Assembly: GCA_963702895.1 (NCBI GenBank) | Contig: OY969767.1 | Location: forward strand, 1,100,866-1,164,865 | From: an uncultured Elusimicrobia bacterium | GTDB taxonomy: Bacteria; Elusimicrobiota; Elusimicrobia; 2-01-FULL-59-12 | Length of the DNA stretch: 64,000 nt | Direction of reading: 5' to 3' | Part shown: one piece after another, positions 1 through 10,423 of the stretch | How positions within the stretch are numbered: position 1 is the first letter of the stretch | How the letters are laid out: the number at the start of each line of letters is the position of its first letter | Position numbers and translations under genes: made by a program | Notes under the pieces: generated by a model | Seen by the model: only the letters and a program-made list of their open reading frames with translations | What the model was told of the DNA's origin: nothing | Databases searched by the model: none

Positions 1-3000
1 GACACTCGCAAAGCGTTTACGGACTTGGTCGCTAAGCGTTTGAAACGTTCACTCACCGTGGAGACACTGGACTTGGCTCGCGAAATCGATTTTGGCCGGT
101 GGGACGGCCTCAGCGAAGAGGAAATTCTCAAGAAGTGGGGCCTGGACGAATTGGAGCGTGCGAAACGCTATCGTTACGAGGTTGACCCGACGGTTGTCTC
201 GGAGGGTGGAACGTCTTACCTGGATTTCTTGACCCACCAGGCAAGCGATCTGTTGACGTACATTAACGAGAAACACGCGGGCAAAACGGTGCTCCTCTTC
301 GCCCATGGAACATTGGGAAGCGCTCTGAGCGTATTGCTGTCATACCCCGAAGTGGTCACAAAAGAAGGTCACATTGACTGGCGGGCAATGAATATTCCAA
401 ACGCCGTGCCCTTTCAATTGCAGCGCTATTCGCGACCCGCCGCGGATTCGGCTACGCCCACCGCGGGCCAGCCCGCTAGCCCTGAGCGGTTCGGCAGGCT
501 CACCGCAAGCGAGCTCGCCCTGAGCGAAGTCGAAGGGAGTCGAAGGGCCGCCGCGCCGGATACGGCGGACACGGAGACAACAGAAACACCGACACGGGGA
601 CGCGGAGAAACACCCATTGAAGTTTCCCCGCGTCACCCCGTCGCCGCGTCTGCGCGTCCGACGTCCGATCCCGCCGCCGCGTCAACGGATCCTGACAGTA
701 TCGGATCCACAGACGCCAATAAGGATCATCGACATCACCCACCCATCGGCAATAACCCGCACGATGTCCCCGCCGCACAGTTCCCTGTTCGACCCGCTTG
801 GGTCTATGAGCCTTCGGTTCCACAGGAAATGAGGTCTGAATTGGAGGATATGCTCCTAAAAGGACCTCATCTGCGATCGGTTCTGGAACGCGCTGCAGAT
901 AAGACGCGGCACCCGGTCACAATTGCATTTCAAGCCTATATGAACATTGCGGCCAGAATGGGATATACCCCCGAAATGGGATATTCCATTATGTTTTCTC
1001 AGGAATGGTTGGACGATAATGAACCAAACGCATTGGGCGCTCTTGAACATGAAGTAGCACACATCGGGGTCTATGTCGACGGCATCGCTAACCTGGAGGA
1101 TGACCGAACTTTTCAGACGAGTATGAGAACCCGTCCTCGCAATGATTTCTCCCATTCCGTATTGCAAGCGCTCTCCGATTTTATTGCAGTTTGCTATCAG
1201 CTCGAGCTAAATTGGGTATCGGCCGCCAGTTATATCCTGGACGTGGTCGTCGCGCTGAATCAAAAGAGTCATGCTCGGTGGGTCAACATGGCGCCCGGGG
1301 AACAGACGCGACAGGCTGCTTTCCAATATGCACTGCACTATCTACGGAGTTTTATGGCTTTTGATCATGAGAACAGGGGCGTTGATCCTGCGACTCGCGA
1401 AACCTTTACATTGGCCTTCAAAGACATTTTAACAACCGAGGAAATGACAGTAATCCGTGAAGCGCTCAACGAATCACTGAGGGGCATTCCCCTCACCCAT
1501 TTGACTCATGCAGACTTTTTTGATGCGTTATGCAATAAACTCTACACGCTCGTAGGCTCACTTGCTAAACATTCTCGCGCTGCCGCGCCGGGCACAGCCG
1601 ACACGGAGACACGGGGACCCCCCGCCACTGAGGCATTGGCGGGTCCGCCAAGAAGTAGTGGCGGAGGAGACACGGGGAATCAAGGAGCAAGCGATGGCCC
1701 CTCCGCTTTTGACGTTTCCCCGCGTCCCCCCCTCCCCGCGTCCCCGCGTCCGACGCCCAAACCCGCCGCCGCGCCGCCGACAGTCGAACCGGCGAATGGG
1801 CGAGCCGGCGATCTGGCGAAAGACCCGCCAAATGGTTCGCCGACACACCCCGTCGCCAAGTCGCTGACTCGACCGTCCGATCCCGCGTCGGGTTCGACTT
1901 CGCTCACCACAGGCCCTGAGCGAGCGGGAGCGAGTCGAAGGGCTCCCGCGCTGGAAAGTGCTGATGTGAGAAATGGTTCAGAAGAATTGGACATTCTAAG
2001 CCCAACAATCGACGCTTTGGTCAATCAATTGTGGAAAAGCATTTCACTCAATGACGCTGTGGGAAGATCACAAGCGCGGCGAGAATTGGAAGCCCTTGGG
2101 TTTAGTGTTCAAATTGGATTTTCACGTGAAATGCATCCATATTCTGATCCACAACATATTGAAGCGCTTACGATTTATCAGACGTTAACGAAAATGGCGA
2201 CTCCTGAGCAGCTCCGCTCCATCCGAGACGTTCTTTCGCATGGGATGCAAAATATCGCCAAATGGGGAGGTGGCAGAGGATTTTTATTAATGCGGCTGAA
2301 TACCGAAGCAAGGGCCTTTCAAATTGTGATGGGAGATTCTGGATTGGGAATCACATATGGCGAGGGGCCTCTGAAAGGCAGCCACGCACCGATTCATGAG
2401 GCGGTAAAACTCGGACAATCGTTCGCTGCTGGAAGCGATGGGGGAAAAGGGCTGGCTTATATGGTGATCGATCTCGACGACGTCTCTGTCACTAGCATCA
2501 CCCCTGAAGACGGAGTTGCCCGCGGCCATTGGTGGAGAAAAGGATGGCAACGAGAACGCAGATTGAAGAGTAATCAAAACTTACCCTCACAGGGATTAAA
2601 GATTGTTGGCCAAAAACTTCTTGGCCCCGCCGCCGCGCCCGCCACTACACCGTTGGCGGGCAAGCCGGGCGCAGCCGACACGGGGATCGATTCACCGCGT
2701 CCCCGCGTCCCCCCTACTCCGCGTCATGATCTCTCCGCGTCACCGCGTCACCACGTCGCCGCGTCTGACTCTGTCACGGAGCCCGCCGCCGCGCCGGAAC
2801 GCTTGCCCTCCCAGTTGAAAGGGAAATGGGCGTGGTTGTCGAATGCCTGGGGGGAAGCGTTCCATTGGCTCCTGGCTCCGGCGTTTGGGTTTCAAGACGC
2901 CCGGATGGTCTGGCAGAAGGACCAGGCTCCTTACGTGCATGTCCCCGGCTTGCCGGCCCGCGGCGTCCGGGCGTTTCTAATGGCGGCCGTGCATCCGCTG

Positions 3001-6000
3001 ATCAATCTTTTCTGGACCCTTTTCCCCTGGCTCATTTGGGACCAGCTGGCGGGTCTTCCTCAAGGCCCTCCGGCCCAGATCCTGATCACCGCGCTGATTC
3101 TTCACGCCGTCCTCAACGCCTACGGTTTTCTGGGCAACCTGATCAGCTCCTACGTTTCCCTGGTCCCATTGACTTTCTATGAGTATGACCGCGCCTCCGA
3201 CCACCGCTTGATCGCCCGGCCCCGTTTCTCTATTTCCGTTCCGCGGTGGGAGGTTAAAGCCAACTCGGACTGGAACCGGATGGTTTACACGCTTTCGCTT
3301 GGGCGTCTTGGCCGCAAACCGGAGGGGGATGACCTTCATTCCGAACTGCCGCGGGGCGCCACCCCGGAAGACCGCGCCGCGTCGCCGCGTCGCCGCGTCC
3401 CCGCGTCTGCGCGTCCGCCGTCCTATCCTGCCTCGACACCTCTTTCGTTCAAGCAGAAACAAGCTTTCATTCTCGCTCACGAGGACCGTCTTGGGGACCT
3501 CAAAAACCCTCGCCATAAGCGCGTCTTGCGCAGATATTTCCTGGAAGGAAAGACGCAGGAGGTCTTGGCAGCCGAATTGGGTCAAGGCCAGAGCTCAGTG
3601 TCTTCATTAATAGCACGGGCTTTCCGAGCGCTTCTTGATTGGGTGTATCCCGATGAAGCGTCAGACCTCAAATTTGTGCGTGATCACGAAGACCGCCTTA
3701 GGGAACTCAACAACCCTCGCTATGAGAGCATTTTGCGCGGGTATTTCCTGGAAGGAAAGACTCACGAGGTCTTGGCAGCTGAATTGGGTATCTCCGTTCG
3801 CTCAGTCTCTGACTCAAAAAGAACAGCCATCCGAGTTTTTCGTGATAAGGTGAACCCTGATGAAGCGTCAGACCGCAAATTTGTGATCGACCACGAGGGC
3901 CTGCTTGGGCAGCTCGCTCCTTCCCAAGTGCGCGCATTGACCGGGTATTTCCTGGAAGGTAAGACCCTGCCAGAATTGGCGCACGCTTACGGCATCACAA
4001 AACAGGCGGTGGCCGAAGCAAAAGACCTCGGCTTGAGACAACTGCGAAGATGGGTTAAAACTCATGAGTCGCTTCTCCAGGCGCTCGTCGAGATGGATGG
4101 GTTGGTCACAGTCACGCGTATCAGCCGCCAGGTCGGGGTGACTGCGCTGAGGGTCAATTCTCATGGGGGTGTCACGGGACTGGTCGCTGAAGCGGCACCG
4201 CTGCGCGCGCTAGCGAGGCTGGAAGCGGGTCCCCTTTTCACAACGAGGCCGAAAAGAGACCTCAGTCTTCGGGACAAGGGAATGACGCGACACCGGCAGG
4301 CGACGGGATTGCCGCCGCCGGCGAAGGAACAAACCAAAGGGAATTCCTTCCAGGAATCTGTGAATGCCCGATTCAAATCGGGAACGAAGTCTGAATTGAC
4401 GGAATTCCTGGGAAGCTTAACGTCTGATCAACGGAATCGATTAACGGATGTTCAGCGCCGTTTGCTTCTTTTTGTCTGGCTTTTCATCGATGACCCTATG
4501 GGCGGAGACCATTACGGAAAAATTGGTGAAAAGCTAATTGATTTCCCGATGCAAACATGGATTCTCGGGGACCAATCCGAGCGCCAATCTGATCCGTGGA
4601 TTGCCATGACCGGGGTGGCAAAAACTCTGCAATCTTTCATCTATGAGCTAAGCTTTCACTGGCAGCGTGGGATCCCCTGGCGCCGAAAAACGATGATTGA
4701 TGCTTTACAAGGTCCCACCACGGACTTGCTGGGCGCCGATACATACCAACGATTGGCCGTCTTAGCGAGGGAGCGTCGCTATCCAAAGAAGGGAAATCGC
4801 AGCACCCGTTTGGCCGGGATAGACTCCGATGACAGGATTGTTGATAGCATCGGTGGCATGGACTGGGCCAGGGGTGAATGGTTCAGCAAATACATTGACA
4901 CGCCGTATTATGATGCTTATGCAGGTCTTATTCTCGCCCCTACCGCTGCGTCGAATGATCCGACAAAAATAAATCCAGCCCAGACCCCGCTAGCGCGCGC
5001 CCTCTGGTTGAAAATCGCCGGGAAAAGCGCGACCAACACCCGGGCGGAATCCTGGTTTACGGCGGTCCTCGAATGGCTTCCCTGGCTGGCGCTGGTGGGG
5101 GCAGCGGCGCTCCAAGCCCTGCATTCGCCGAGTGGTTATTCCTGGCTGCTGATCCCGGTCAGCGCTTCGATCGCGATGATCTTTTTATACGCCCTGCACG
5201 CGTGGGTCCCCCGGTGGGCCCCGCCAGGCGTTGAACGCGTAAAAGTCGGGCGCGAAACATGGCCCCTGGCGGCCGGCTTGTTTGCTGTGGACGTCTTGGC
5301 GGGCTTCTCGGTGGCTTGGGGCGTGGGGTTGGCGGCGGTGCCACTCGTTCTGCTGGGGTGGTTCCTTCACGCCAGGCACGACCGGCGAATCTTCAATCAA
5401 CGGACGACAGGCGACCGCGATTTTGGAAAAACGGGATTGAGATTCTTTGTCCTTGGCCTTGGAACGATCTGGCTTGGACGGCGGTGGCCGCCCGGTAACG
5501 CCAGCTATTCAGATCCTTCCGAAGAGGAAATCGATAAACATCTTGAAGAAGCGTTCGTCTCGATGGGGAACAAGGACGGTGTCGTCATGCTGGATACCGC
5601 GGCCGCCTACGGCCGATCGGAGGAGCGCCTCGGGCGCTTCTTGCTAAAACGTCCCGATCTGGCGCGACGCGCTTTTATCGCCACGAAGTGGGGTGAGGAG
5701 TTTGATCCAGTGACGAACCGATCGTGGAAGGATTTCTCGGTTCAAAATCTGAGGGCCTCTTTCAAGCGGAGCCAGGATCACCTTGGCAAAGTGGACCTGC
5801 TTTACATCCACATGTCCACGGACGCCTCCGCGGATGTCCTGCGCGACGAGGCTGTGCGGCAGGAGATGGAACGTATGAAAATCGATGGGGAGGTGCGGCT
5901 CATCGGCGCATCGATCTCCAATGAAGCGATCCTGGCCGAGGCTATAGAACAAGGCTCACTGAATGGCTTCGATGTGATCCAGATGCCGGCCCCTCTCTTT

Positions 6001-6306
6001 TTGAAGCGGCCCGCTTTGGCTTCGGCCTTACACCAACGTGGCTTCGCCGTTGTTCTTAATTCCCCTGTCCGCAAAGCGGACAATCAGAATCCCGAAAACG
6101 CAATCCGTGAATTGGCCAACCGGCCCGAGGTTTCCATGATTCTCACGGGGACCCGGATGCACCTGGGAGAAACGGTGAGCTACCTGGGCACACCTCCCAG
6201 CGCGCCCAAAGGAAGGCTTCCGCTTTGGCGGCAATGGAAAAACTGGCTGTTTGCGCCGGCGGATAAAAACGCTCGCTTCTCTCATCGGGTCCGGGCTGCC
6301 GCGTAA
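1..6306 (+). CDS. Giant multidomain protein, 5' end outside the window. Contains histidine-phosphatase-like, HExxH, GHKL/anti-sigma-kinase-like, 3x sigma-70 region-4-like HTH, TM segments and a C-terminal aldo/keto reductase.
   Basis: Frame 1 has no stop from base 1 to TAA 6304-6306, while all other frames are fragmented. Motifs seen: EIDFGRWDG and FAHGTLGS (His phosphatase), LEHEVAHIG, HGMQNIAKWGGGRG/MGDSGLGI/GGKGLAYM, YFLEGKT..LAAELG x3, and LGLGTIWLG/DTAAAYGRSEE/LLYIHMS (AKR). Confidence 0.6.
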   Translation, partial: DTRKAFTDLVAKRLKRSLTVETLDLAREIDFGRWDGLSEEEILKKWGLDELERAKRYRYEVDPTVVSEGGTSYLDFLTHQASDLLTYINEKHAGKTVLLFAHGTLGSALSVLLSYPEVVTKEGHIDWRAMNIPNAVPFQLQRYSRPAADSATPTAGQPASPERFGRLTASELALSEVEGSRRAAAPDTADTETTETPTRGRGETPIEVSPRHPVAASARPTSDPAAASTDPDSIGSTDANKDHRHHPPIGNNPHDVPAAQFPVRPAWVYEPSVPQEMRSELEDMLLKGPHLRSVLERAADKTRHPVTIAFQAYMNIAARMGYTPEMGYSIMFSQEWLDDNEPNALGALEHEVAHIGVYVDGIANLEDDRTFQTSMRTRPRNDFSHSVLQALSDFIAVCYQLELNWVSAASYILDVVVALNQKSHARWVNMAPGEQTRQAAFQYALHYLRSFMAFDHENRGVDPATRETFTLAFKDILTTEEMTVIREALNESLRGIPLTHLTHADFFDALCNKLYTLVGSLAKHSRAAAPGTADTETRGPPATEALAGPPRSSGGGDTGNQGASDGPSAFDVSPRPPLPASPRPTPKPAAAPPTVEPANGRAGDLAKDPPNGSPTHPVAKSLTRPSDPASGSTSLTTGPERAGASRRAPALESADVRNGSEELDILSPTIDALVNQLWKSISLNDAVGRSQARRELEALGFSVQIGFSREMHPYSDPQHIEALTIYQTLTKMATPEQLRSIRDVLSHGMQNIAKWGGGRGFLLMRLNTEARAFQIVMGDSGLGITYGEGPLKGSHAPIHEAVKLGQSFAAGSDGGKGLAYMVIDLDDVSVTSITPEDGVARGHWWRKGWQRERRLKSNQNLPSQGLKIVGQKLLGPAAAPATTPLAGKPGAADTGIDSPRPRVPPTPRHDLSASPRHHVAASDSVTEPAAAPERLPSQLKGKWAWLSNAWGEAFHWLLAPAFGFQDARMVWQKDQAPYVHVPGLPARGVRAFLMAAVHPLINLFWTLFPWLIWDQLAGLPQGPPAQILITALILHAVLNAYGFLGNLISSYVSLVPLTFYEYDRASDHRLIARPRFSISVPRWEVKANSDWNRMVYTLSLGRLGRKPEGDDLHSELPRGATPEDRAASPRRRVPASARPPSYPASTPLSFKQKQAFILAHEDRLGDLKNPRHKRVLRRYFLEGKTQEVLAAELGQGQSSVSSLIARAFRALLDWVYPDEASDLKFVRDHEDRLRELNNPRYESILRGYFLEGKTHEVLAAELGISVRSVSDSKRTAIRVFRDKVNPDEASDRKFVIDHEGLLGQLAPSQVRALTGYFLEGKTLPELAHAYGITKQAVAEAKDLGLRQLRRWVKTHESLLQALVEMDGLVTVTRISRQVGVTALRVNSHGGVTGLVAEAAPLRALARLEAGPLFTTRPKRDLSLRDKGMTRHRQATGLPPPAKEQTKGNSFQESVNARFKSGTKSELTEFLGSLTSDQRNRLTDVQRRLLLFVWLFIDDPMGGDHYGKIGEKLIDFPMQTWILGDQSERQSDPWIAMTGVAKTLQSFIYELSFHWQRGIPWRRKTMIDALQGPTTDLLGADTYQRLAVLARERRYPKKGNRSTRLAGIDSDDRIVDSIGGMDWARGEWFSKYIDTPYYDAYAGLILAPTAASNDPTKINPAQTPLARALWLKIAGKSATNTRAESWFTAVLEWLPWLALVGAAALQALHSPSGYSWLLIPVSASIAMIFLYALHAWVPRWAPPGVERVKVGRETWPLAAGLFAVDVLAGFSVAWGVGLAAVPLVLLGWFLHARHDRRIFNQRTTGDRDFGKTGLRFFVLGLGTIWLGRRWPPGNASYSDPSEEEIDKHLEEAFVSMGNKDGVVMLDTAAAYGRSEERLGRFLLKRPDLARRAFIATKWGEEFDPVTNRSWKDFSVQNLRASFKRSQDHLGKVDLLYIHMSTDASADVLRDEAVRQEMERMKIDGEVRLIGASISNEAILAEAIEQGSLNGFDVIQMPAPLFLKRPALASALHQRGFAVVLNSPVRKADNQNPENAIRELANRPEVSMILTGTRMHLGETVSYLGTPPSAPKGRLPLWRQWKNWLFAPADKNARFSHRVRAAA
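557..683. repeat. 8-nt-period inverted tandem-repeat hairpin element (GGRGACRC / CCGCGTCN class), in frame in the giant ORF
   Basis: Left arm is about 7 units (cggatacg gcggacac ggagacaa ... gggacgcg gagaaaca). Loop is cccattgaagttt. Right arm is about 7 units (ccccgcgt caccccgt cgccgcgt ctgcgcgt ...). Translates as TADTETTETPTRGRGE..SPRHPVAASARPTSDP. Confidence 0.7.
1048..1062 (+). other. HExxH motif (HEVAH) within the giant ORF
   Basis: cat gaa gta gca cac is in frame, in the context LGALEHEVAHIGVY. Zincin-like motif only; no further fold evidence. Confidence 0.4.
1598..1755. repeat. Composite 8-nt-period hairpin element (GACACGGR / CCCCGCGT class), in frame in the giant ORF
   Basis: ccgacacg gagacacg gggacccc and ggagacacggggaatc face tttccccgcgtcccccctccccgcgtccccgcgtccgacg. 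An inner inverted repeat ccgccact...agtggcgg is also present. Confidence 0.65.
1791..1864. repeat. 8-nt-period hairpin element (GGCGARNN / NNTCGCC class), in frame in the giant ORF
   Basis: ggcgaatg ggcgagcc ggcgatct ggcgaaag is followed by ...ggttcgcc gacacacc ccgtcgcc aagtcgc. Confidence 0.6.
2239..2470 (+). other. GHKL-type ATPase-like segment (SpoIIAB/RsbW-like) of the giant ORF
   Basis: N-box-like HGMQNIAKW, G1-like MGDSGLGI and G2-like GGKGLAYM occur in the expected order. Confidence 0.45.
2675..2768. repeat. 8-nt-period repeat element with a short left arm and a long CCGCGTCN right arm, in frame in the giant ORF
   Basis: ccgacacggggatc is followed by caccgcgt ccccgcgt ... ctccgcgt caccgcgt caccacgt cgccgcgt. 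Translates as SPRPRVPPTPRHDLSASPRHHVAAS. Confidence 0.65.
3375..3422. repeat. Six tandem 8-nt units (CGCCGCGT type), half-element, in frame in the giant ORF
   Basis: cgccgcgt x3, then ccccgcgt, ctgcgcgt, ccgccgtc. The 48 nt equal 16 codons (ASPRRRVPASARPPS). Confidence 0.75.
3466..4086 (+). repeat. Three tandem 207-nt coding repeats, each a sigma-70 region-4 / LuxR-like HTH module
   Basis: Units start at 3466, 3673 and 3880. Peptide pattern is F(I/V)xDHExxLxxLxxP..LRxYFLEGKTxxxLAxELGxSxxSV...PDEASDxK. DNA-level similarity includes tatttcctggaagg(a/t)aagac in all three. Confidence 0.8.
5430..6303 (+). other. Aldo/keto reductase domain at the C-terminus of the giant ORF
   Basis: GLRFFVLGLGTIWLG, MLDTAAAYGRSEERLGRFL, FIATKWG, DLLYIHMS and IGASISN are typical AKR landmarks. 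Confidence 0.75.
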
Positions 6307-6364: not shown

Positions 6365-6438
6365 GTGATTAGGCAGGTTCTCCTTGAAAAATTAAGCAGG
6401 TTGGCTGAGAGATTAGGTAGGCTCCTCCCAGAGAAGCG
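6365..6438. repeat. Array A: 3-4 contiguous ~21-nt direct repeats (GATTAGGCAGGTT type) abutting the ORF6N stop codon
   Basis: Units are gtgattaggcaggttctccttga, aaaattaagcaggttggctgag, agattaggtaggctcctcccag. Confidence 0.7.
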
Positions 6439-6951
6439 CTATTCATGCTTGAAGCCTTTGATCCGTAATGGGGCATCCGCCGGCTTTGCCATCAGCCCAC
6501 GGATCGCGTCGAAGACCACTTTAAATTGCGCGTCGTATTTGTTTTCCAGCTCATGCAGCTTGCGGGCCAAGTCTTTGTGAGTGGCCAACATCTCTCTGAT
6601 CCTTACAAAGGCATCCACAACCGCGAGGCTTGCTTTCACGGCGGTCTCACTATTGAGAACGCAAGCCAGCATGATCGCGCCATGCTCCGTGAAAACAAGG
6701 GGCAAATAACGTCGCCCTCCGTGGGCCATTCTTGAGGTCGCATTTTGCGACCTCAAGCGGCGCGCTTCCCCTTCGGCAAGCTGGAACATATATCGAGGCG
6801 GGAACCGGATTCGATTTCGCTTCACCTGTTCATTCAAACGTTTGGTCGTTACTCCATAGAGTTCCGCCAGATCTTCGTCCAGCATCACTTTATATCCACG
6901 AATCAGATAAATATACTGCTCAATCTTGATGCTCGGTACAGGTTTATTCAT
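6439..6951 (-). CDS. ORF6N-domain (KilA-N-related) DNA-binding protein
   Basis: IEQYIYLIRGYKVMLDEDLAELYGVTTKRLNEQVKRNRIRFPPRYMFQL is a textbook ORF6N signature. ATG at 6951 is preceded by GGAGAGGAGG. Confidence 0.85.
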   Translation of the reverse strand: MNKPVPSIKIEQYIYLIRGYKVMLDEDLAELYGVTTKRLNEQVKRNRIRFPPRYMFQLAEGEARRLRSQNATSRMAHGGRRYLPLVFTEHGAIMLACVLNSETAVKASLAVVDAFVRIREMLATHKDLARKLHELENKYDAQFKVVFDAIRGLMAKPADAPLRIKGFKHE

Positions 6952-7116
6952 GGGCTCCTCCTCTCCCTTAGATGGAGAACACCCGAAAATATTCACTGCT
7001 TAGACAAAGAGTTCAGACCCATCCGAGAACCCATTGCGTTTCGCATTTCGCCTTTTACATTCTTCATTTTGACTTGAGACACACCAGCGGTCGCAAGAGA
7101 TGAAGCAGCTTCGTCA

Positions 7117-7414
7117 AAGATTAGGCAGGTTCCCCTGGAAAGATTAAGCAGGTTCACGGAAAGATTGAGACGGCTCCTCGAAGAACGAGACGGTTGGTCG
7201 GGAAAGAAAGAGACGGTTGGCAAAGAGAATGAGACGGCTCCTCGAAGATTAGGTAGGTGACCCCGGAAAGATTAGGCAGGTTGGCCGAAAGATTAGGTAA
7301 GTTCCTCGAAGATTAGGTAAGTTCCCCGCGAAAGATTAGGTAAGTCGACCGAAAGATTAGGTAAGCTGGCGGAAAGATTAGGTAAGTTGACCGAAAGATT
7401 AAGCAGGTCTGTCC
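7117..7414. repeat. Array B: about 14 contiguous 19-23-nt direct repeats, consensus AAGATTAGGTAAGTTsnCCG
   Basis: Units were read one by one. The left units are degenerate (aagattgagacggctcctcg, aagaacgagacggttgg...). The right units are near-perfect. The last unit supplies the final codons and stop of the 7399 ORF. Confidence 0.85.
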
Positions 7415-7749
7415 GCGCCGGACGGCACGGGTTGGTACAGCGTGGCGGGGTCACGGGGATCGCCGGAGCGCTTGATCAGGCCGCGGTCCATGAGGTTGCC
7501 CAGGATTCTTAAGGTGGCCGTGCGCGAAAGGTTTAGCAGCTTTTCCACATCCTCCCGGCGCAGGCCGGCGCTCTGGCGCGCGGCGTCCAGGATCATCTTC
7601 TCGTAGCGTTCCCGTTTGCGGCTGACCCAGCGGTTTTGGGTGGAGGGGGGCAGGGGGTGACGAAGGCGTCGGCGCCGCGGCCTGGCCTTCGCCCTCGAGC
7701 TGTTGTTTGAGCCCCCGTGCGCCTTTTCAAACAGGTCGAACAGATCAGG
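7399..7749 (-). pseudogene. 5'-truncated, frameshifted duplicate of the 3' end (wHTH domain) of gene 9680..10423
   Basis: 7442-7573 differs from 9723-9854 at 4 positions by eye. Upstream homology continues to about 7730 but reads RPRRRRLRHPLPPSTQ where the intact copy reads GESAAPPPSSPTPSTQ (frame change). No TM region or start is present. Confidence 0.7.
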
Positions 7750-7834
7750 TCAAGCAAATCCAGGTTCCAAACACGCTTCATCGCAAAGGATGTGGAAGGC
7801 GAGCGCAGGGTTCTGTTATACAATCATCGTCAAG

Positions 7835-8482
7835 ATGACGCCAAAGGATCGTTACGATGTGTCCGATTTGCCGGAGGCGCAGTTTGAGCCGGGCTCACGA
7901 AGGCAGGTTCTGCGCAATCGTTTAGGCATCAGAACGATTGCCGCCATGGAGAATGCCGAAGAGCTGGCCTTGAAAAAGGCGACAGACATTCTTCTGCATA
8001 CCTACTCAAAGGACCATCGCTTTAAGGCCAATGACATCCGTCATATGCACCGGCTTTGGCTATCGGACATCTACGGCTGGGCAGGCAATTATCGGAGGGT
8101 CAATCTGAGCAAGACGGGATTCATGTTTGCTGTTGCCCAGCACGTTCCCGGATTGATGCAGGAATTTGAAACGACTGCTCTGAAAGAATGCACCCCTTGT
8201 CATCCTGGGGATATTGAGACGATTGCAGAACATTTGGCGAAGGTCCACGTTGAACTCGTGCTGATACACCCCTTCCGGGAAGGAAACGGACGTGTTGCCC
8301 GGCTACTCACGACCTTCATGGCGCTCCAGGCCGATCTGCCGCTCCTGGATTACAGAAGCATTCTGGGGAAATCGACACCCGTTTATTTTGCCGCCATTCA
8401 AGCGGGCATGAAACGAGACTACTTGCCCATGCGGAAAGTGATGAAATCAGTGATTGCGCGTACGCTCAGGCGGCTTTCTTAA
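7835..8482 (+). CDS. Fic/DOC family protein (likely AMPylating toxin)
   Basis: Canonical Fic motif IHPFREGNGRVARLL (HxFx[D/E]GNGRxxR). ATG at 7835; the longer TTG start at 7703 is probably spurious. No internal SxxxE[G/N] inhibitory motif was seen. Confidence 0.85.
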   Translation: MTPKDRYDVSDLPEAQFEPGSRRQVLRNRLGIRTIAAMENAEELALKKATDILLHTYSKDHRFKANDIRHMHRLWLSDIYGWAGNYRRVNLSKTGFMFAVAQHVPGLMQEFETTALKECTPCHPGDIETIAEHLAKVHVELVLIHPFREGNGRVARLLTTFMALQADLPLLDYRSILGKSTPVYFAAIQAGMKRDYLPMRKVMKSVIARTLRRLS

Positions 8483-8636: not shown

Positions 8637-8702
8637 GAAACAAGTCTACCATGATGGCCGCACCAATTCCAGACTTCCCAGCCGTTGCAGAAAGGACCTC
8701 CT

Positions 8703-9449
8703 ATGAAATTCGAGCTTTCTGACGAACAACTGAAAAATCTGCTGGTTCTGGCGTATCTGGGCGAATGGATGGCTAATGCGACCAGGGAAGAGCCGATCAA
8801 AGACTATGAGCAAGCCGCTTCCAGGATTTACGCCCTGGCCCAAGGAACCGCGCTGGAGCGCTACGTGGACTACGATGATCAGTCGCGGCGGTGGTGGCCC
8901 AGCAAGGAGCTGGACGAAGCAGCGGAACCGTTGCGCAGCGATTATGACGATGAGACGTTCTGGGACGAACTGCTGGACCGCCTGATCGACCGGGACCTTG
9001 CCGCAACATACGGGGTTGGGATTTTGGGTTCGAAGGACCGTGATAAATATTGCGCCCTGCGAGAGCCGATCGAGTCACGCTACGGGACGGAGTTTGAACG
9101 CTTTGGGATTGATCGCCTCAAGCTGCCCGAGGGTCTTCCTGAAGAAGACGCTTACTCCCCCTCGCCGGCCCAGGCGACAGCGATGGGCTTGGCGTGGTAC
9201 CGGTCCGATCAATGGGAACAGCTTCGGTCCATCTCCGCGGACCGCGATGAGCTCGAAGAAAGATACGTGGAATGGTTAAAGACCGCTTCTAACCTCTTTT
9301 CCCAGCTCACGCTGCGGGGTCAAGAGATCAAAAAGGTATTAGTGGACGTCAATGATCTCGCCAAATGGTGTAAAGCCAAGGGCCTTCTTGTCGATTCCCA
9401 TTCCCGATCTGCTTTCGTCGCGGACCAGCTCCGAACGACGAAGTCCTGA
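8703..9449 (+). CDS. Acidic hypothetical protein (248 aa), cargo of the Fic cassette
   Basis: Long non-repetitive ORF with ATG at 8703. No motif recognised. Confidence 0.6.
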   Translation: MKFELSDEQLKNLLVLAYLGEWMANATREEPIKDYEQAASRIYALAQGTALERYVDYDDQSRRWWPSKELDEAAEPLRSDYDDETFWDELLDRLIDRDLAATYGVGILGSKDRDKYCALREPIESRYGTEFERFGIDRLKLPEGLPEEDAYSPSPAQATAMGLAWYRSDQWEQLRSISADRDELEERYVEWLKTASNLFSQLTLRGQEIKKVLVDVNDLAKWCKAKGLLVDSHSRSAFVADQLRTTKS

Positions 9450-9526: not shown

Positions 9527-9695
9527 AATAGATTAACCGGGTTCCTCGAAGATCGGGCCGGTTCCCCGAAAGATTAGGCAGGTTGGCCGAAAGATTAGGT
9601 AAGTTCCTCGAAGATTAGGTAAGTTCCCTGCGGAAGATTAGGTAAGTTGGCCGAAAGATTAGGTAAGTTAACCGAAAGATTAGGCAGGCTTGTCC
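9527..9695. repeat. Array C: 8 contiguous ~20-nt direct repeats, same family and order as the right part of array B
   Basis: Units include aagattaggcaggttggccga, aagattaggtaagttcctcg, aagattaggtaagttccctgcgg. The last unit encodes KPA-stop of gene 9680..10423. Confidence 0.85.
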
Positions 9696-10423
9696 GTCGC
9701 AGCCTGCCCGGATTGGTAGAGCGTGGCGGGGTCACGGGGATCGCCGGCGCGCTTGATCAGGCCGCGGTCCATGAGGCTGCCCAGGATCCTTAAGGTGGCC
9801 GTGCGCGAAAGGTTCAGCAGCTTTTCCACATCCTCCCGGCGCAGGCCGGCGCTCTTGCCAGTGGCGTCCAGGACAATCTTCTCGTAGCGTTCCCGCTTCC
9901 GGCTGACCCAGCGGTGTTGGGTGGAGGGGGTAGGGGGTGACGAAGGCGGCGGGGCCGCGGACTCGCCTTTGGCCTCGAGCTGCCGTTCGAGTTCCTGATG
10001 CGCTTTTTCCTCCACGCGGACGCTCAACCACCGGGAGGCACTCGATCCGATGTAGAACCCGAGGACTTCGAAGGCAATCAAGGTAAGTCCCTTGGGGTAG
10101 GCCAGGCGCGCCGGCCAGATCTCGGAGCCGAGCACCGCCACGAGCAGGAAGACCGCCCATAGTCCGACGAACCATTCCCCTTTGAGCCGGAAAGGCGCGG
10201 GTTGCGTCTCTCCTTCGGCCGCCAGTTTCTCCGGATGGAAGCCGATCGTCCACCGGTGGACTTCTTTCCCCCCCACATAAGCCGAAAGCAATGCCAGGTA
10301 GAAGGCGTTGGCGGTGCTGACGTTGATCTGGACATGAGCGGCGGTGGCGAACTCCGCGACCTGCACGCCGAAAAGAGCCAGGGTGTAGAGCGCGCTCAGC
10401 CAGAAAAGAAAGGTCATGCTCAA
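9680..10423 (-). CDS. Membrane protein with about 4 TM helices, a coiled-coil linker and a C-terminal winged-helix (MarR-like) domain
   Basis: Hydrophobic N-terminal half. C-terminus is GLRREDVEKLLNLSRTATLRILGSLMDRGLIKRAGDPRDPATLY. Its ATG overlaps the ogt stop (ATGA). Confidence 0.7.
   Translation of the reverse strand: MSMTFLFWLSALYTLALFGVQVAEFATAAHVQINVSTANAFYLALLSAYVGGKEVHRWTIGFHPEKLAAEGETQPAPFRLKGEWFVGLWAVFLLVAVLGSEIWPARLAYPKGLTLIAFEVLGFYIGSSASRWLSVRVEEKAHQELERQLEAKGESAAPPPSSPPTPSTQHRWVSRKRERYEKIVLDATGKSAGLRREDVEKLLNLSRTATLRILGSLMDRGLIKRAGDPRDPATLYQSGQAATDKPA

What the first reader, a model, noticed from the sequence alone, without database searches (positions are those of the whole stretch)
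1..6306. 6.3-kb uninterrupted ORF joining phosphatase, HExxH, anti-sigma-kinase-like ATPase, three sigma region-4 copies, TM segments and an aldo/keto reductase
Frame 1 has no stop from base 1 to 6306. The polypeptide therefore exceeds 2,090 aa and continues upstream of the window. Every other frame over this span breaks into short ORFs. In order, the recognisable modules are as follows. First, a histidine-phosphatase C-terminal half (EIDFGRWDG, FAHGTLGS). Second, an HExxH segment (LEHEVAHIG). Third, a GHKL ATPase resembling SpoIIAB/RsbW serine-kinase anti-sigma factors (HGMQNIAKW, MGDSGLGI, GGKGLAYM). Fourth, hydrophobic stretches at about 2830-3180 and 5050-5400. Fifth, three tandem sigma-70 region-4-like HTH units. 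Sixth, a full AKR domain. An anti-sigma-kinase-like module and multiple sigma r4 decoy-like modules on one membrane-tethered chain suggest a self-contained partner-switching or sigma-mimicry device. I do not recognise this architecture from any described family. The module boundaries coincide with stop-free hairpin repeats, which is reported as a separate finding.
Basis: partly seen in the sequence, partly recalled or inferred. Interest (0 to 1): 0.8.

Follow-up and report, generated by a model that had tools for sequence, protein, structure and literature searches.

The report
Giant patchwork membrane-tethered multi-enzyme protein
This is a real single bacterial gene of 2,616 codons that joins a phosphatase, a kinase-like ATPase, three DNA-binding units, a reductase and membrane anchors through floppy linkers made from repeat DNA; it belongs to a very rare, undescribed family of giant patchwork proteins, and there is little evidence that it is a self-contained sigma-factor switch.

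Summary
The open frame is real. Frame 1 has no stop from base 1 to 6303 (chance about 1e-37), and the complete product is 2,616 aa.

**Modules**
- Profile searches confirm His_Phos_1, three Sigma70_r4 units and an aldo/keto reductase.
- The GHKL guess is confirmed by structure. The AF2 model has pLDDT 81, Foldseek returns only GHKL folds, and SpoIIAB is the best size-normalised match.
- The HExxH segment is only a motif in an orphan module.

**Linkers and composition**
- Four junctions are P/A/S/T/G-rich linkers encoded by an imperfect palindrome of 8-nt CCGCGTC repeats. The repeat occurs nowhere else in the 64 kb.
- The HExxH, GHKL, r4 and following modules have GC3 below all 31 other genes in the window. 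The chain is therefore a compositional mosaic.

**Relatives**
- An exhaustive search of 1.84 billion proteins found ten relatives, mostly giant (up to 5,186 aa).
- They share only an N-terminal leader, the GHKL-like module or a novel TM module. The enzyme cargo differs in each.

**Reading**
- Best reading: a membrane-stapled, cytoplasm-facing patchwork protein built by module accretion.
- The partner-switching reading lacks STAS, PP2C and a full sigma factor, and the GHKL-r4 pairing is not conserved.

Function remains inferred.

The parts
1..450 (+). C-terminal half of a histidine phosphatase (His_Phos_1) module. The domain starts upstream of the window, where its RHG motif lies.
   Evidence: Pfam His_Phos_1 E 4.7e-9 on the window part and E 5.8e-20 on the whole domain taken from P0001. 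GC3 is 0.64, typical of the genome.
451..780 (+). Linker 1. It is P/A/S/T/G-rich (57%). It is encoded by an imperfect palindrome (core about 534-692: GACACGGGGACGCGGAGAAAC ... GTTTCCCCGCGTCACCCCGTCGCCGCGTC) with 8-nt periodic CCGCGTC units.
   Evidence: (RNA fold z = -2.1). The coding log-likelihood is about 0 in all frames.
781..1569 (+). Orphan module carrying an HExxH motif (HEVAH at nt 1048-1062). It may be a zincin-like peptidase, but this is unverified.
   Evidence: No homologue in the exhaustive search or in PDB. Only SprT-like at E 0.065. GC3 is 0.50, z = -4.3 against the other genes.
1570..1935 (+). Linker 2. It is 70% P/A/S/T/G and carries the same palindromic/octamer element (core about 1561-1797, 86% identical to linker 1 over 65 nt).
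1936..2610 (+). GHKL (Bergerat-fold) ATPase module of HATPase_c_2 / SpoIIAB-RsbW type. It has a family-specific N-terminal helical subdomain.
   Evidence: Alignment A2 has an invariant N-box Asn, DxGxG and GxGL. Pfam HATPase_c_2 matches 4 of 8 family members, and P0008 scores 25.3 bits against a 27.4 cutoff. The AF2 model has pLDDT 80.7 and pTM 0.80. Foldseek returns only GHKL proteins, with SpoIIAB 1th8_A at prob 1.00 and TM 0.66. GC3 is 0.44, z = -5.7.
2611..2790 (+). Linker 3, carrying the same repeat element (core about 2638-2796).
2791..3336 (+). TM1 module, a novel conserved polytopic membrane module. Its motifs are GKWAWLSNAWGExxH, HPLIN, LPQGPP, HAVLNAYGF and SDWNR.
   Evidence: It is shared with P0002, P0003, P0005 and P0011 (E 1e-26 to 1e-5; alignment A3). 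It is C-terminal in P0005 and P0011. No Pfam or PDB hit. The AF2 model has pLDDT 58 and shows three long helices, with no fold match. It is not related to the CPBP modules of relatives (HHalign probability 0.5%).
3337..3447 (+). Linker 4, a run of (CCGCGTCN) units at 3370-3438, translated ASPRRRVPASARPPS.
3448..4080 (+). Three tandem sigma-70 region-4-type HTH units of 69 aa each (3454-3660, 3661-3867, 3868-4074).
   Evidence: Pfam Sigma70_r4 E 2.5e-18 in 3 stretches. NCBIfam sigma70-ECF E 7.9e-16 and SigB/F/G E 3.7e-7. A 207-nt DNA period. dN/dS between the units is about 0.6, lowest in frame 1. GC3 is 0.56, z = -3.0.
4081..4920 (+). Unannotated soluble module ('post').
   Evidence: No Pfam, PDB or PHROG hit. 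Frame +1 codes best.
4921..5400 (+). TM2 block with four predicted TM helices (about nt 5056-5367). K/R flanks predict N-in/C-in. It ends in the motif LHARHDRRIF, shared with P0004.
   Evidence: Hydropathy and K/R counts. The 17-aa motif match to P0004 has E 0.012. Not CPBP-like.
5401..6306 (+). Aldo/keto reductase module and the stop codon (6304-6306).
   Evidence: Pfam Aldo_ket_red E 1.3e-17, profile positions 2-193 of 291. D/Y/K/H tetrad positions are visible in LDTAAAYG, IATKWG and LLYIHMS (my reading). GC3 is 0.65.

Best explanation
The span is the 3' four-fifths of one genuine 7.8-kb gene. Its 2,616-aa product is a patchwork ('polyvalent-like') protein.

Shown:
- A hydrophobic N-terminal leader, a novel polytopic TM module (TM1) and a second four-helix TM block staple a string of autonomous soluble modules to the membrane.
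- In order, the soluble modules are an unknown domain, His_Phos_1 phosphatase, an HExxH orphan, a SpoIIAB-like GHKL ATPase, three sigma-r4 HTH units, an unknown domain and an AKR.
- The recognisable enzyme modules keep their catalytic motifs.
- Four junctions are disordered P/A/S/T/G-rich linkers translated from a GC-rich palindromic 8-nt-periodic repeat.
- The chain is a compositional mosaic. The leader and TM1 module recur in other giant proteins with entirely different cargo.

Inferred:
- All soluble modules face the cytoplasm. This rests on the positive-inside rule and on the cofactor needs of the ATPase, phosphatase and AKR.
- The protein was built by stepwise in-frame accretion of foreign modules into a conserved membrane chassis.
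- It works as a membrane-localised cluster of independently acting regulatory or protein-modifying modules, either as one chain or after cleavage in the exposed linkers.
For: Single real ORF: 0 stops in 2,101 codons against 76 and 89 in the other frames, P about 1e-37. Frame +1 codes best in every module. There is no excess of internal promoters or terminators, and no start/SD signature at module starts. The database gene call is 2,616 aa on a 2.72-Mb contig.

Integrity across the repeats: P0005 from another organism has both the same leader and the same TM1 module in one protein. The related locus L085 is also one ORF, of 5,186 aa.

Modules.

Family: only ten relatives exist in 1.84e9 representatives, and seven are at least 1,316 aa long. 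Their cargo includes CheR-type and class I methyltransferases, GNAT, nucleotidyltransferase, Metallophos and Rce1-like TM modules.

Mosaic: GC3 is 0.44-0.59 for the HExxH, GHKL, r4 and 'post' modules, against 0.60-0.79 for all 31 other genes in the window.

Topology: the hydrophobic pair at aa 1-19 and 85-103 is followed by a basic stretch, and TM2 is predicted N-in/C-in.

Linkers: 57-70% P/A/S/T/G and 7-13% hydrophobic residues. The same octamer tract is translated inside ordinary genes of other genomes.
Against: - No expression, proteomic or read-level data are available.
- Topology comes from a crude hydropathy scan. The number of membrane passes in TM1 is unknown, so the side on which the r4 and AKR half lies is not secure.
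- If the leader is a cleaved signal peptide, the first 1,400 residues would lie outside the cell.
- dN/dS between the r4 units is only about 0.6, which is mild constraint.
- Three soluble modules (N1, HExxH, 'post') have no assignable fold.
- Neither TM block of this protein is a demonstrable protease, so self-processing has no direct support.
- Low GC3 could reflect weak expression rather than foreign origin.
- The source organism is not identified.
Confidence: 0.6

Rival explanations
1. Self-processing polyprotein. The chain is a precursor that is cut in the exposed linkers, by its own HExxH module, by a TM module or by a host protease. This would release the phosphatase, the kinase-like ATPase, the HTH triplet and the AKR as separate proteins. 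It would also release the r4 HTH units from the membrane so that they can reach DNA.
For: The linkers are long, disordered and protease-accessible. An HExxH motif sits in an orphan module with a faint SprT-like zincin signal. Relatives embed Rce1/CPBP-type intramembrane protease modules at or near the Pfam threshold. Polyvalent proteins and giant Omnitrophota proteins are thought to be processed by embedded peptidases (PMC5512222; bioRxiv 10.1101/2023.11.21.568195). Modules such as AKR and His_Phos normally act as free proteins.
Against: The HExxH module has no significant family assignment and no homologue. TM1 and TM2 of this protein are not CPBP-like. No conserved cleavage motif has been shown, and there are no protein data.
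Confidence: 0.25
2. One reading: a self-contained partner-switching or sigma-mimicry device. The SpoIIAB/RsbW-like GHKL module would bind or phosphorylate a partner on the same chain. The three r4 units would act as decoys or clients, and the His_Phos module would be the opposing phosphatase.
For: The GHKL fold is closest to SpoIIAB after size normalisation, and HATPase_c_2 is the best Pfam family for relatives. The r4 units score best with SigB/F/G among specific NCBIfam subfamilies. A phosphatase lies on the same chain.
Against: No STAS domain, no PP2C and no sigma region 2 are detected. In ten relatives the GHKL-like module never co-occurs with r4 or His_Phos at Pfam level, and two relatives are stand-alone GHKL modules. 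The L085 neighbourhood has no sigma or STAS genes. From my own knowledge, SpoIIAB contacts sigma-F mainly through domain 3.
Confidence: 0.1
3. Exported multi-effector protein. The N-terminal leader is a Sec signal, and the enzyme modules are delivered to the envelope or to another cell, as in MARTX or polymorphic toxins and in the effector arrays of predatory or episymbiotic bacteria.
For: The N-terminus looks like a signal peptide, and a conserved LVPC follows in both P0001 and P0005. The cargo differs between relatives on a conserved chassis. Many cargo types are protein-modifying enzymes. A candidate toxin/defence pair (ORF6N and Fic) lies immediately downstream.
Against: The ATP- and NADPH-dependent modules (GHKL, AKR) and the DNA-binding HTH units fit the cytoplasm. 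A second hydrophobic segment followed by a basic stretch suggests a hairpin that returns the chain to the cytoplasm. There are no secretion-system domains and no PADLOC or PHROG affinity. The L085 relative sits among housekeeping genes.
Confidence: 0.1
4. Artefact or decaying fusion. Either separate genes were mis-joined at the shared repeats during assembly, or repeat insertion recently fused neighbouring genes into a product that is not functional as a whole.
For: The junctions are repeats. The modules have discordant GC3. The linkers have no coding signal of their own. This exact architecture has no orthologue.
Against: The repeat copies are only 63-86% identical over 65 nt or less, which is too short and divergent to collapse an assembly. 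Four junctions all keep frame 1, although the linkers carry stops in other frames. No module has its own start. Relatives are giant single ORFs too, and P0005 spans from leader to TM1 in one chain. Catalytic motifs are intact.
Confidence: 0.04

Closest known systems
Polyvalent proteins of phages and conjugative elements (Iyer, Burroughs, Anand, de Souza, Aravind 2017; PMC5512222)
   Same: One polypeptide carries many unrelated enzymatic and DNA-binding domains. Domain content varies between relatives. An HExxH/zincin-type module may sit between the other domains, and processing is suspected.
   Different: No phage or conjugative context could be shown (PHROGs and PADLOC negative for the protein; the relative L085 lies between pgpA-like and cinA/recA genes). 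None of the hallmark domains (SNF2 ATPase, DNA methylase, ArdC-N, ParB) is present. This protein has polytopic TM modules, and the word 'transmembrane' does not occur in that paper's main text.
Giant multi-TM proteins of Omnitrophota and other uncultivated bacteria (West-Roberts et al. 2023, bioRxiv 10.1101/2023.11.21.568195)
   Same: Very long single ORFs have many TM segments interspersed with divergent enzyme domains, including metabolic ones. Embedded peptidases may cleave them. They are known mostly from metagenomes.
   Different: This protein is ten-fold smaller (2.6 kaa against more than 10-30 kaa). It has no SecA_DEAD, dockerin or carbohydrate-active domains, and its conserved modules are different (leader, TM1, GHKL-like). 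No sequence relationship was tested or seen.
SpoIIAB/RsbW anti-sigma serine kinases (Pfam HATPase_c_2; PDB 1TH8, 6M36)
   Same: The Bergerat fold with N-box, G1 and G2 motifs. SpoIIAB is the best size-normalised structural match, and RsbW is among the weak profile hits.
   Different: The module is embedded in a giant chain and has an extra N-terminal helical subdomain. It is below the Pfam threshold, and it has no STAS partner, no PP2C and no cognate full sigma factor.
Rickettsia palindromic elements and other intragenic MITE-like repeats (Ogata et al. 2000, as reviewed in PMC10969869)
   Same: Palindromic repeat DNA sits in-frame inside a protein-coding gene and is translated as extra, tolerated peptide segments.
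   Different: The sequence is different (GC-rich 8-nt periodic CCGCGTC arrays in inverted orientation). In this window all four copies lie in one gene, exactly at module junctions, rather than being scattered through unrelated genes. No evidence of transposition, such as target duplications, was obtained.
MARTX and polymorphic toxin polyproteins
   Same: An N-terminal trafficking region plus a variable array of effector modules, released by autoprocessing.
   Different: No RTX or Rhs repeats, no cysteine protease domain and no secretion-system genes are present. The modules are of cytoplasmic type and the predicted topology is cytoplasmic.

Membership tests
GHKL (Bergerat-fold) ATPase superfamily | Bergerat alpha/beta sandwich fold | tested here: met
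   The AF2 model has pLDDT 80.7 and pTM 0.80. All Foldseek PDB matches with E<=0.001 (13) and the rest of the 50 listed are GHKL proteins: Hsp90 and TRAP1 N-domains, SpoIIAB, GyrB/ParE and a histidine kinase.
GHKL (Bergerat-fold) ATPase superfamily | N-box Asn, G1 (DxGxG) and G2 (GxxGxG-like) nucleotide-binding motifs in that order | tested here: met
   Alignment A2 has invariant N106, G136/G138 (GDSGLG in this protein), G170 and L173.
GHKL (Bergerat-fold) ATPase superfamily | Pfam HATPase_c or HATPase_c_2 score above the gathering threshold | tested here: not met
   This protein's module gets no hit even at E 10. Relatives: 4 of 8 hit HATPase_c_2, best E 2e-4, and P0008 scores 25.3 against a 27.4-bit cutoff.
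SpoIIAB/RsbW partner-switching module | STAS-domain anti-anti-sigma substrate (SpoIIAA/RsbV) | tested here: not met
   No STAS hit in the 2,616-aa protein or in downstream genes. The DNA upstream of the gene is outside the window.
SpoIIAB/RsbW partner-switching module | PP2C-type phosphatase (SpoIIE/RsbU/RsbP) | tested here: not met
   The only phosphatase present is His_Phos_1.
SpoIIAB/RsbW partner-switching module | Cognate sigma factor with regions 2-4 as the client | tested here: not met
   Only region-4 units are present. There is no Sigma70_r2 or r3 hit in the chain or in the window genes scanned.
SpoIIAB/RsbW partner-switching module | Serine kinase activity and ATP-dependent partner exchange | not testable with these tools
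   This needs biochemistry.
Sigma-70 family sigma factor | Region 4 HTH | tested here: met
   Pfam Sigma70_r4 E 2.5e-18 in three stretches, and Sigma70_r4_2 E 6.5e-9.
Sigma-70 family sigma factor | Region 2 (core binding and -10 recognition) | tested here: not met
   There is no r2 hit. The NCBIfam sigma models match only their C-terminal 45-65 positions and score far below their cutoffs.
Polyvalent proteins (PMC5512222) | Multiple unrelated domains (2 to 15) in one polypeptide | tested here: met
   At least nine modules, five of them with assigned folds.
Polyvalent proteins (PMC5512222) | Encoded by a phage, prophage, plasmid or conjugative element | tested here: inconclusive
   PHROGs hits are only generic r4 and AKR matches. 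ORF6N and Fic genes lie downstream, but no integrase, capsid or transfer genes were seen. L085 has a housekeeping context. The upstream flank could not be seen.
Polyvalent proteins (PMC5512222) | Zincin-like MPTase and hallmark domains (SNF2, DNA methylase, ArdC-N, ParB) | tested here: not met
   There is an HExxH motif only, with SprT-like at E 0.065. None of the hallmark domains is present.
CPBP / Rce1-like intramembrane proteases | Pfam Rce1-like match, or profile similarity including the EExxxR, FxxxH and HxxxN motifs | tested here: not met
   TM1 and TM2 of this protein get no hit at E 10. HHalign against the CPBP-like modules of relatives gives probability 0.5% and 0.03%. The relatives' own TM modules do match, at 22.8, 21.5 and 14.9 bits against a 22.4 cutoff.
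Aldo/keto reductase | Pfam Aldo_ket_red above threshold, with the catalytic D/Y/K/H tetrad | tested here: met
   64.2 bits against a cutoff of 24, covering profile positions 2-193 of 291. The tetrad positions were read from the sequence. The C-terminal third is divergent.
Histidine phosphatase branch 1 | Pfam His_Phos_1 above threshold, with the RHG motif and the second catalytic His | tested here: met
   72.2 bits against a cutoff of 21.7. RHGET and FAHGT are both present in P0001.
In-frame palindromic repeat elements (RPE-like) | Palindromic repeat copies translated in-frame within ORFs | tested here: met
   Four copies lie in frame 1 of this ORF. Related octamer tracts are translated inside SNF2-like and ParB-like ORFs in L065.
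In-frame palindromic repeat elements (RPE-like) | Dispersal through many unrelated genes of the same genome, or signs of mobility | tested here: inconclusive
   Within the 64-kb window the repeat occurs only in this gene (13 matches against 0.08 expected). The rest of the genome is not available. In viral contigs the octamer tract is not enriched inside ORFs (24 of 41 sites against 74% of random positions).

The most novel reading that the evidence does not exclude
The GC-rich palindromic octamer-repeat linkers are not passive spacers. They would be the recombination joints of a cassette system, through which foreign modules are spliced in-frame into a conserved membrane chassis (N-terminal leader plus TM1 module). 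Here the foreign modules would be the low-GC3 HExxH, GHKL-like and r4 units. This would generate lineage-specific 'polyvalent' membrane proteins. The evidence does not exclude this reading: repeats lie exactly at the junctions that bracket the compositionally foreign modules, all four copies in 64 kb lie in this one gene, and relatives share the chassis but carry unrelated cargo.
Probability: 0.15. Interest if true: 0.8.

Novelty: new variant of a known kind. Interest (0 to 1): 0.55.

Why it matters
If the chain is made as predicted, it defines a very rare family: ten relatives among 1.84 billion representative proteins. In this family a conserved membrane chassis carries interchangeable enzymatic and DNA-binding cargo. 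Two of its modules have no entry in Pfam or NCBIfam: the TM1 module and a SpoIIAB-like GHKL module with a helical extension.

It also gives a clear example outside Rickettsia of palindromic repeat DNA translated in-frame, here placed exactly at domain junctions. That makes the question of whether such repeats help assemble multidomain genes directly testable by comparing sister genomes.

For annotation, it shows that a 'domain salad' ORF of this kind is real rather than an assembly error. It also shows that motif-level guesses can be right for GHKL and unverifiable for HExxH.

Tried and rejected
- **Whole-protein word-indexed search** found only the protein itself. The candidate list was probably swamped by low-complexity linker words.
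- **The same search with concatenated unannotated modules** returned nothing, not even the protein itself. I treat it as uninformative.
- **The third search, with a two-module profile**, returned only P0002, an Elusimicrobia MAG fragment.
- **Protein-pattern scans** of 185k species genomes and of JGI metagenomes with the TM1 profile found no relatives. The narrowed GHKL profile found one locus, L085.
- **Genome-collection scan for the palindrome core** gave mostly single chance hits. Only two Planctomycetota loci carried clustered octamers.
- **TM1 structure** had low confidence (pLDDT 58) and no fold match, so no function could be assigned.
- **CPBP hypothesis for TM1 and TM2**: rejected.
- **PDB sequence searches** for the HExxH, N1 and 'post' modules found nothing.
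- **PADLOC and PHROGs on the protein** showed no defence or phage affinity.
- **Internal cistrons**: no internal promoter or terminator excess, and no start/SD at module starts. This genome barely uses SD, so the SD test is weak.
- **Linker RNA hairpins**: only linker 1 folds better than shuffles (z = -2.1). The others do not, so a strong conserved RNA structure is not supported.
- **dN/dS between r4 units** (about 0.6) is only weak evidence of constraint.


Full report
**1. The observation**

Translation of frame 1 gives no stop from base 1 to 6303, with the stop at 6304-6306. The ORF list shows nothing longer than 202 aa in any other frame of the span. The other two + frames contain 76 and 89 stops. 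At that rate (3.9% per codon), an open run of 2,101 codons has a probability of about 10^-36.6.

A codon-usage log-likelihood trained on Pfam-supported genes of the same window puts frame +1 first in every module. The linker segments score near zero in all six frames.

The database holds the complete gene call: P0001, 2,616 aa, on a 2.72-Mb contig. Window residue 1 is residue 516 of that protein.

**2. Domain assignments**

- Pfam and NCBIfam confirm His_Phos_1. The full domain, including the RHG motif upstream of the window, scores E 5.8e-20.
- They confirm three Sigma70_r4 stretches (E 2.5e-18). The best specific NCBIfam subfamily for these is SigB/F/G, at E 3.7e-7.
- They confirm Aldo_ket_red (E 1.3e-17). 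It covers profile positions 2-193 of 291.
- There is no direct Pfam hit for the proposed GHKL module or for the HExxH module.

The GHKL call was nevertheless verified in three steps.
- Relatives of this module were found by an exhaustive HMMER search. Their alignment has an invariant N-box Asn, DxGxG and GxGL in the canonical order.
- Four of eight members touch Pfam HATPase_c_2. One relative reaches 25.3 bits against a cutoff of 27.4. A profile search of PDB gave only weak hits, but the structured ones were coherent: TRAP1/Hsp90, histidine kinases and RsbW at E 0.25-0.5.
- An AlphaFold2 model built on that alignment is confident (pLDDT 80.7, pTM 0.80). Foldseek against the PDB returns only GHKL proteins. 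SpoIIAB (1th8_A) is the best size-normalised match, with probability 1.00, TM 0.66 on the target and rmsd 4.2 Å.

The HExxH segment (HEVAH, nt 1048-1062) lies in a 263-aa module that has no homologue in 1.84 billion representatives or in the PDB. Its best family hit is SprT-like at E 0.065. It remains a motif, not an assignment.

**3. Linkers**

Four junctions consist of 37-122 residues with 57-70% P/A/S/T/G and 7-13% hydrophobic residues. They lie at nt 451-780, 1570-1935, 2611-2790 and 3337-3447.

At the DNA level the four share an element. It is an imperfect palindrome, GACACGGGGACGCGGAGAAAC ... GTTTCCCCGCGTCnCCCCGTC. It is built from 8-nt periodic GACGCGGn / nCCGCGTC units and flanked by GCCGCCGCGCC.

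The double-octamer pattern occurs 13 times in the window against 0.08 expected, and every match lies in these four linkers. The junctions downstream of the r4 units carry no such repeat.

Only linker 1 folds better than shuffled controls (z = -2.1). The others do not. The linkers carry no terminator-like T-tracts.

The same octamer tract is found elsewhere.
- In a Planctomycetota MAG locus (L065) it is translated in-frame, as GETRGRGDAG, inside SNF2-like and ParB-like ORFs.
- It also occurs in 38 GC-rich viral-contig stretches, translated as SPRPRVPAS or TRGRGDAG. There it is not enriched inside ORFs: 24 of 41 sites, against 74% of random positions.

So the repeat family is widespread and tolerated in coding sequence. 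This resembles the Rickettsia palindromic elements (reviewed in PMC10969869). What is unusual here is that all four copies in the window lie in one gene, exactly at domain junctions.

**4. Mosaic composition**

GC3 of 31 other ORFs in the window averages 0.684 (sd 0.043, range 0.596-0.794).

| Module | GC3 |
|---|---|
| His_Phos | 0.64 |
| TM1 | 0.74 |
| TM2 | 0.72 |
| AKR | 0.65 |
| HExxH | 0.50 |
| GHKL-like | 0.44 |
| r4 triplet | 0.56 |
| 'post' | 0.59 |

The first four modules fall inside the range of the other genes. The last four fall below every other gene. The repeat linkers bracket three of the four compositionally foreign modules; the 'post' module has no repeat at either junction.

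**5. Relatives**

An exhaustive phmmer search with nt 781-3330 against 1.84 billion cluster representatives found only ten other proteins at E <= 0.001. Seven are 1,316-4,816 aa long, and three are contig-end fragments. One fragment is completed by the metagenome locus L085 to a single 5,186-aa ORF.

The relatives share only parts of the chain.
- The GHKL-like module is present in six of the ten, twice in one protein and stand-alone in two.
- A novel TM module is shared by four (P0002, P0003, P0005, P0011). Its motifs are GRWAWxSNxWGExxH, HPxIN, LPQGPP, HAxLNAxGF and SDWNR, and it is C-terminal in two relatives.
- The N-terminal leader is shared by one relative: MPKWIVRIVALLLVPCL here against VPKVLARYVALFLVPCL in P0005.

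Their other content differs: CheR-type and class I methyltransferases, GNAT, nucleotidyltransferase, Metallophos and Rce1/CPBP-like TM modules. None repeats the domain order seen here.

The one relative with a name comes from an Elusimicrobia MAG. The source organism of the window could not be named. It makes little use of Shine-Dalgarno sequences.

L085's giant ORF lies between pgsA/pgpA-like genes and cinA/recA. That is a housekeeping context, with no sigma or STAS partner.

**6. Is it one protein?**

Several results argue against mis-assembly or separate genes.
- The repeat copies are short and only 63-86% identical.
- All junctions keep frame 1, although linkers 1-3 have stops in other frames.
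- No module has its own start signal, and there is no excess of internal promoters or terminators.
- P0005 carries leader and TM1 in one chain in another organism.
- Relatives are giant single ORFs too.
- Catalytic motifs of His_Phos, GHKL and AKR are intact.

Constraint measured between the three r4 units is only mild. dN/dS is about 0.6, and it is lowest in frame 1.

**7. How it probably works**

Hydropathy and K/R counts suggest three things.
- An N-terminal hydrophobic pair (aa 1-19 and 85-103) is followed by a very basic stretch.
- The TM1 region follows. The low-confidence model shows three long helices there.
- A four-helix TM2 block has both ends on the K/R-rich side.

Together with the ATP- and NADPH-dependent and DNA-binding nature of the modules, this favours a cytoplasm-facing string of modules stapled to the membrane at three places.

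I commit to the following as the most likely mechanism, at confidence about 0.6 for the whole statement. The protein is a membrane-localised patchwork of independently acting regulatory or protein-modifying modules. It was assembled by in-frame accretion of foreign modules into a conserved chassis.

Whether it acts intact or after cleavage in the linkers is open. The self-processing variant (0.25) rests on the HExxH motif and on the CPBP-like modules of relatives. TM1 and TM2 of this protein are not CPBP-like, and the HExxH module is unassigned.

**8.

The fold and motif guesses for GHKL and r4 were right. The r4 units do resemble the SigB/F/G group. The defining parts of a partner-switching module are nevertheless missing: a STAS antagonist, a PP2C phosphatase and a full sigma client. 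The GHKL-like module travels with quite different partners in all relatives. I give this reading about 0.1.

**9. Comparison with known systems and novelty**

- The closest concepts are the polyvalent proteins of phages and conjugative elements (PMC5512222) and the giant multi-TM proteins of Omnitrophota (bioRxiv 10.1101/2023.11.21.568195). This protein shares the principle: many unrelated modules on one chain, variable content, and possible embedded peptidases. It does not share their context, hallmark domains or size.
- The TM1 module and this GHKL subfamily have no entry in Pfam or NCBIfam.
- The repeat linkers are RPE-like in principle but different in sequence and placement.
- I rate it a new variant of a known kind.
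- Interest is moderate (0.55). The family is rare and the junction-specific translated palindromes are striking. However, giant 'domain salad' proteins are not unprecedented in uncultivated bacteria, and the function is not established.
- The most novel reading not excluded is that the repeats are recombination joints for in-frame module shuffling. I give it probability about 0.15.

Noticed in passing
window 6439-8482: An ORF6N-domain gene (6439-6996, minus strand; PADLOC PDC-S05, E 8e-51) and a Fic/DOC gene (7703-8482; PADLOC PDC-S04 E 1.5e-70, SoFic-like E 8e-13) lie immediately downstream of the giant ORF. Both are candidate defence or toxin genes.
   Followed up: partly
window 7350-7711 and 9631-9991: A direct repeat of about 360 nt (85-90% identical, 2,281 nt apart) brackets the Fic gene and ORF 8685-9449. 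It duplicates the 3' end of the TM/MarR-like ORF 9680-10423 (minus strand), leaving a truncated copy at 7399-7596. It looks like the scar of an insertion or duplication.
   Followed up: partly
window 6367-6432, 7116-7409, 9540-9688: Intergenic arrays of a roughly 21-nt unit (AAGATTAGGTAAGTTnnCCGA, also seen with a 64-nt super-period; up to 7 copies). The first array starts 60 nt after the giant ORF's stop. They may be iterons or regulator-binding sites.
   Followed up: no
L065 3387-5057 and 6615-7943 (Planctomycetota MAG DASPJR010000233.1): The same 8-nt periodic CCCCGCGT tracts occur in-frame inside an SNF2-like helicase ORF (twice) and a ParB-like ORF. Both lie in what looks like a prophage or mobile region with DNA methyltransferases.
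   Followed up: partly
L086-L123 (IMG/VR contigs): Triple CCGCGTCN octamers occur in 38 viral-contig stretches (mean GC 0.62). They are translated as SPRPRVPAS or TRGRGDAG depending on the strand. One contig (L122) carries four copies in a single 924-codon open frame.
   Followed up: partly
L085 971-16531: A 5,186-aa single ORF lies between pgsA/pgpA-like genes and cinA/recA. It has two GHKL-type blocks, two Rce1/CPBP-like TM modules, a GNAT and a Metallophos domain. About half of it has no Pfam match at all.
   Followed up: partly
window 3448-4080: The best PDB sequence match of the r4 triplet is 8vd6_A, deposited as 'CAP REPEAT' (E 3e-4). That protein is a tandem array of short HTH-like repeats, which hints that tandem r4-like HTH arrays exist as a structural class.
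   Followed up: no
window, whole: Upstream regions of ATG-start ORFs almost never contain a Shine-Dalgarno-like motif (1 of 14). No tRNA gene and no Rfam family were found in 64 kb.
   Followed up: no
P0001 aa 320-440 (upstream of the window): The segment between the N1 module and the phosphatase reads ...EASPAPAAAPDSAASHRPARGG...SPSPVPSLSRSG.... It resembles the repeat-derived linkers, so a fifth repeat-type linker probably lies just upstream of the window. Only the protein sequence is available.
   Followed up: no
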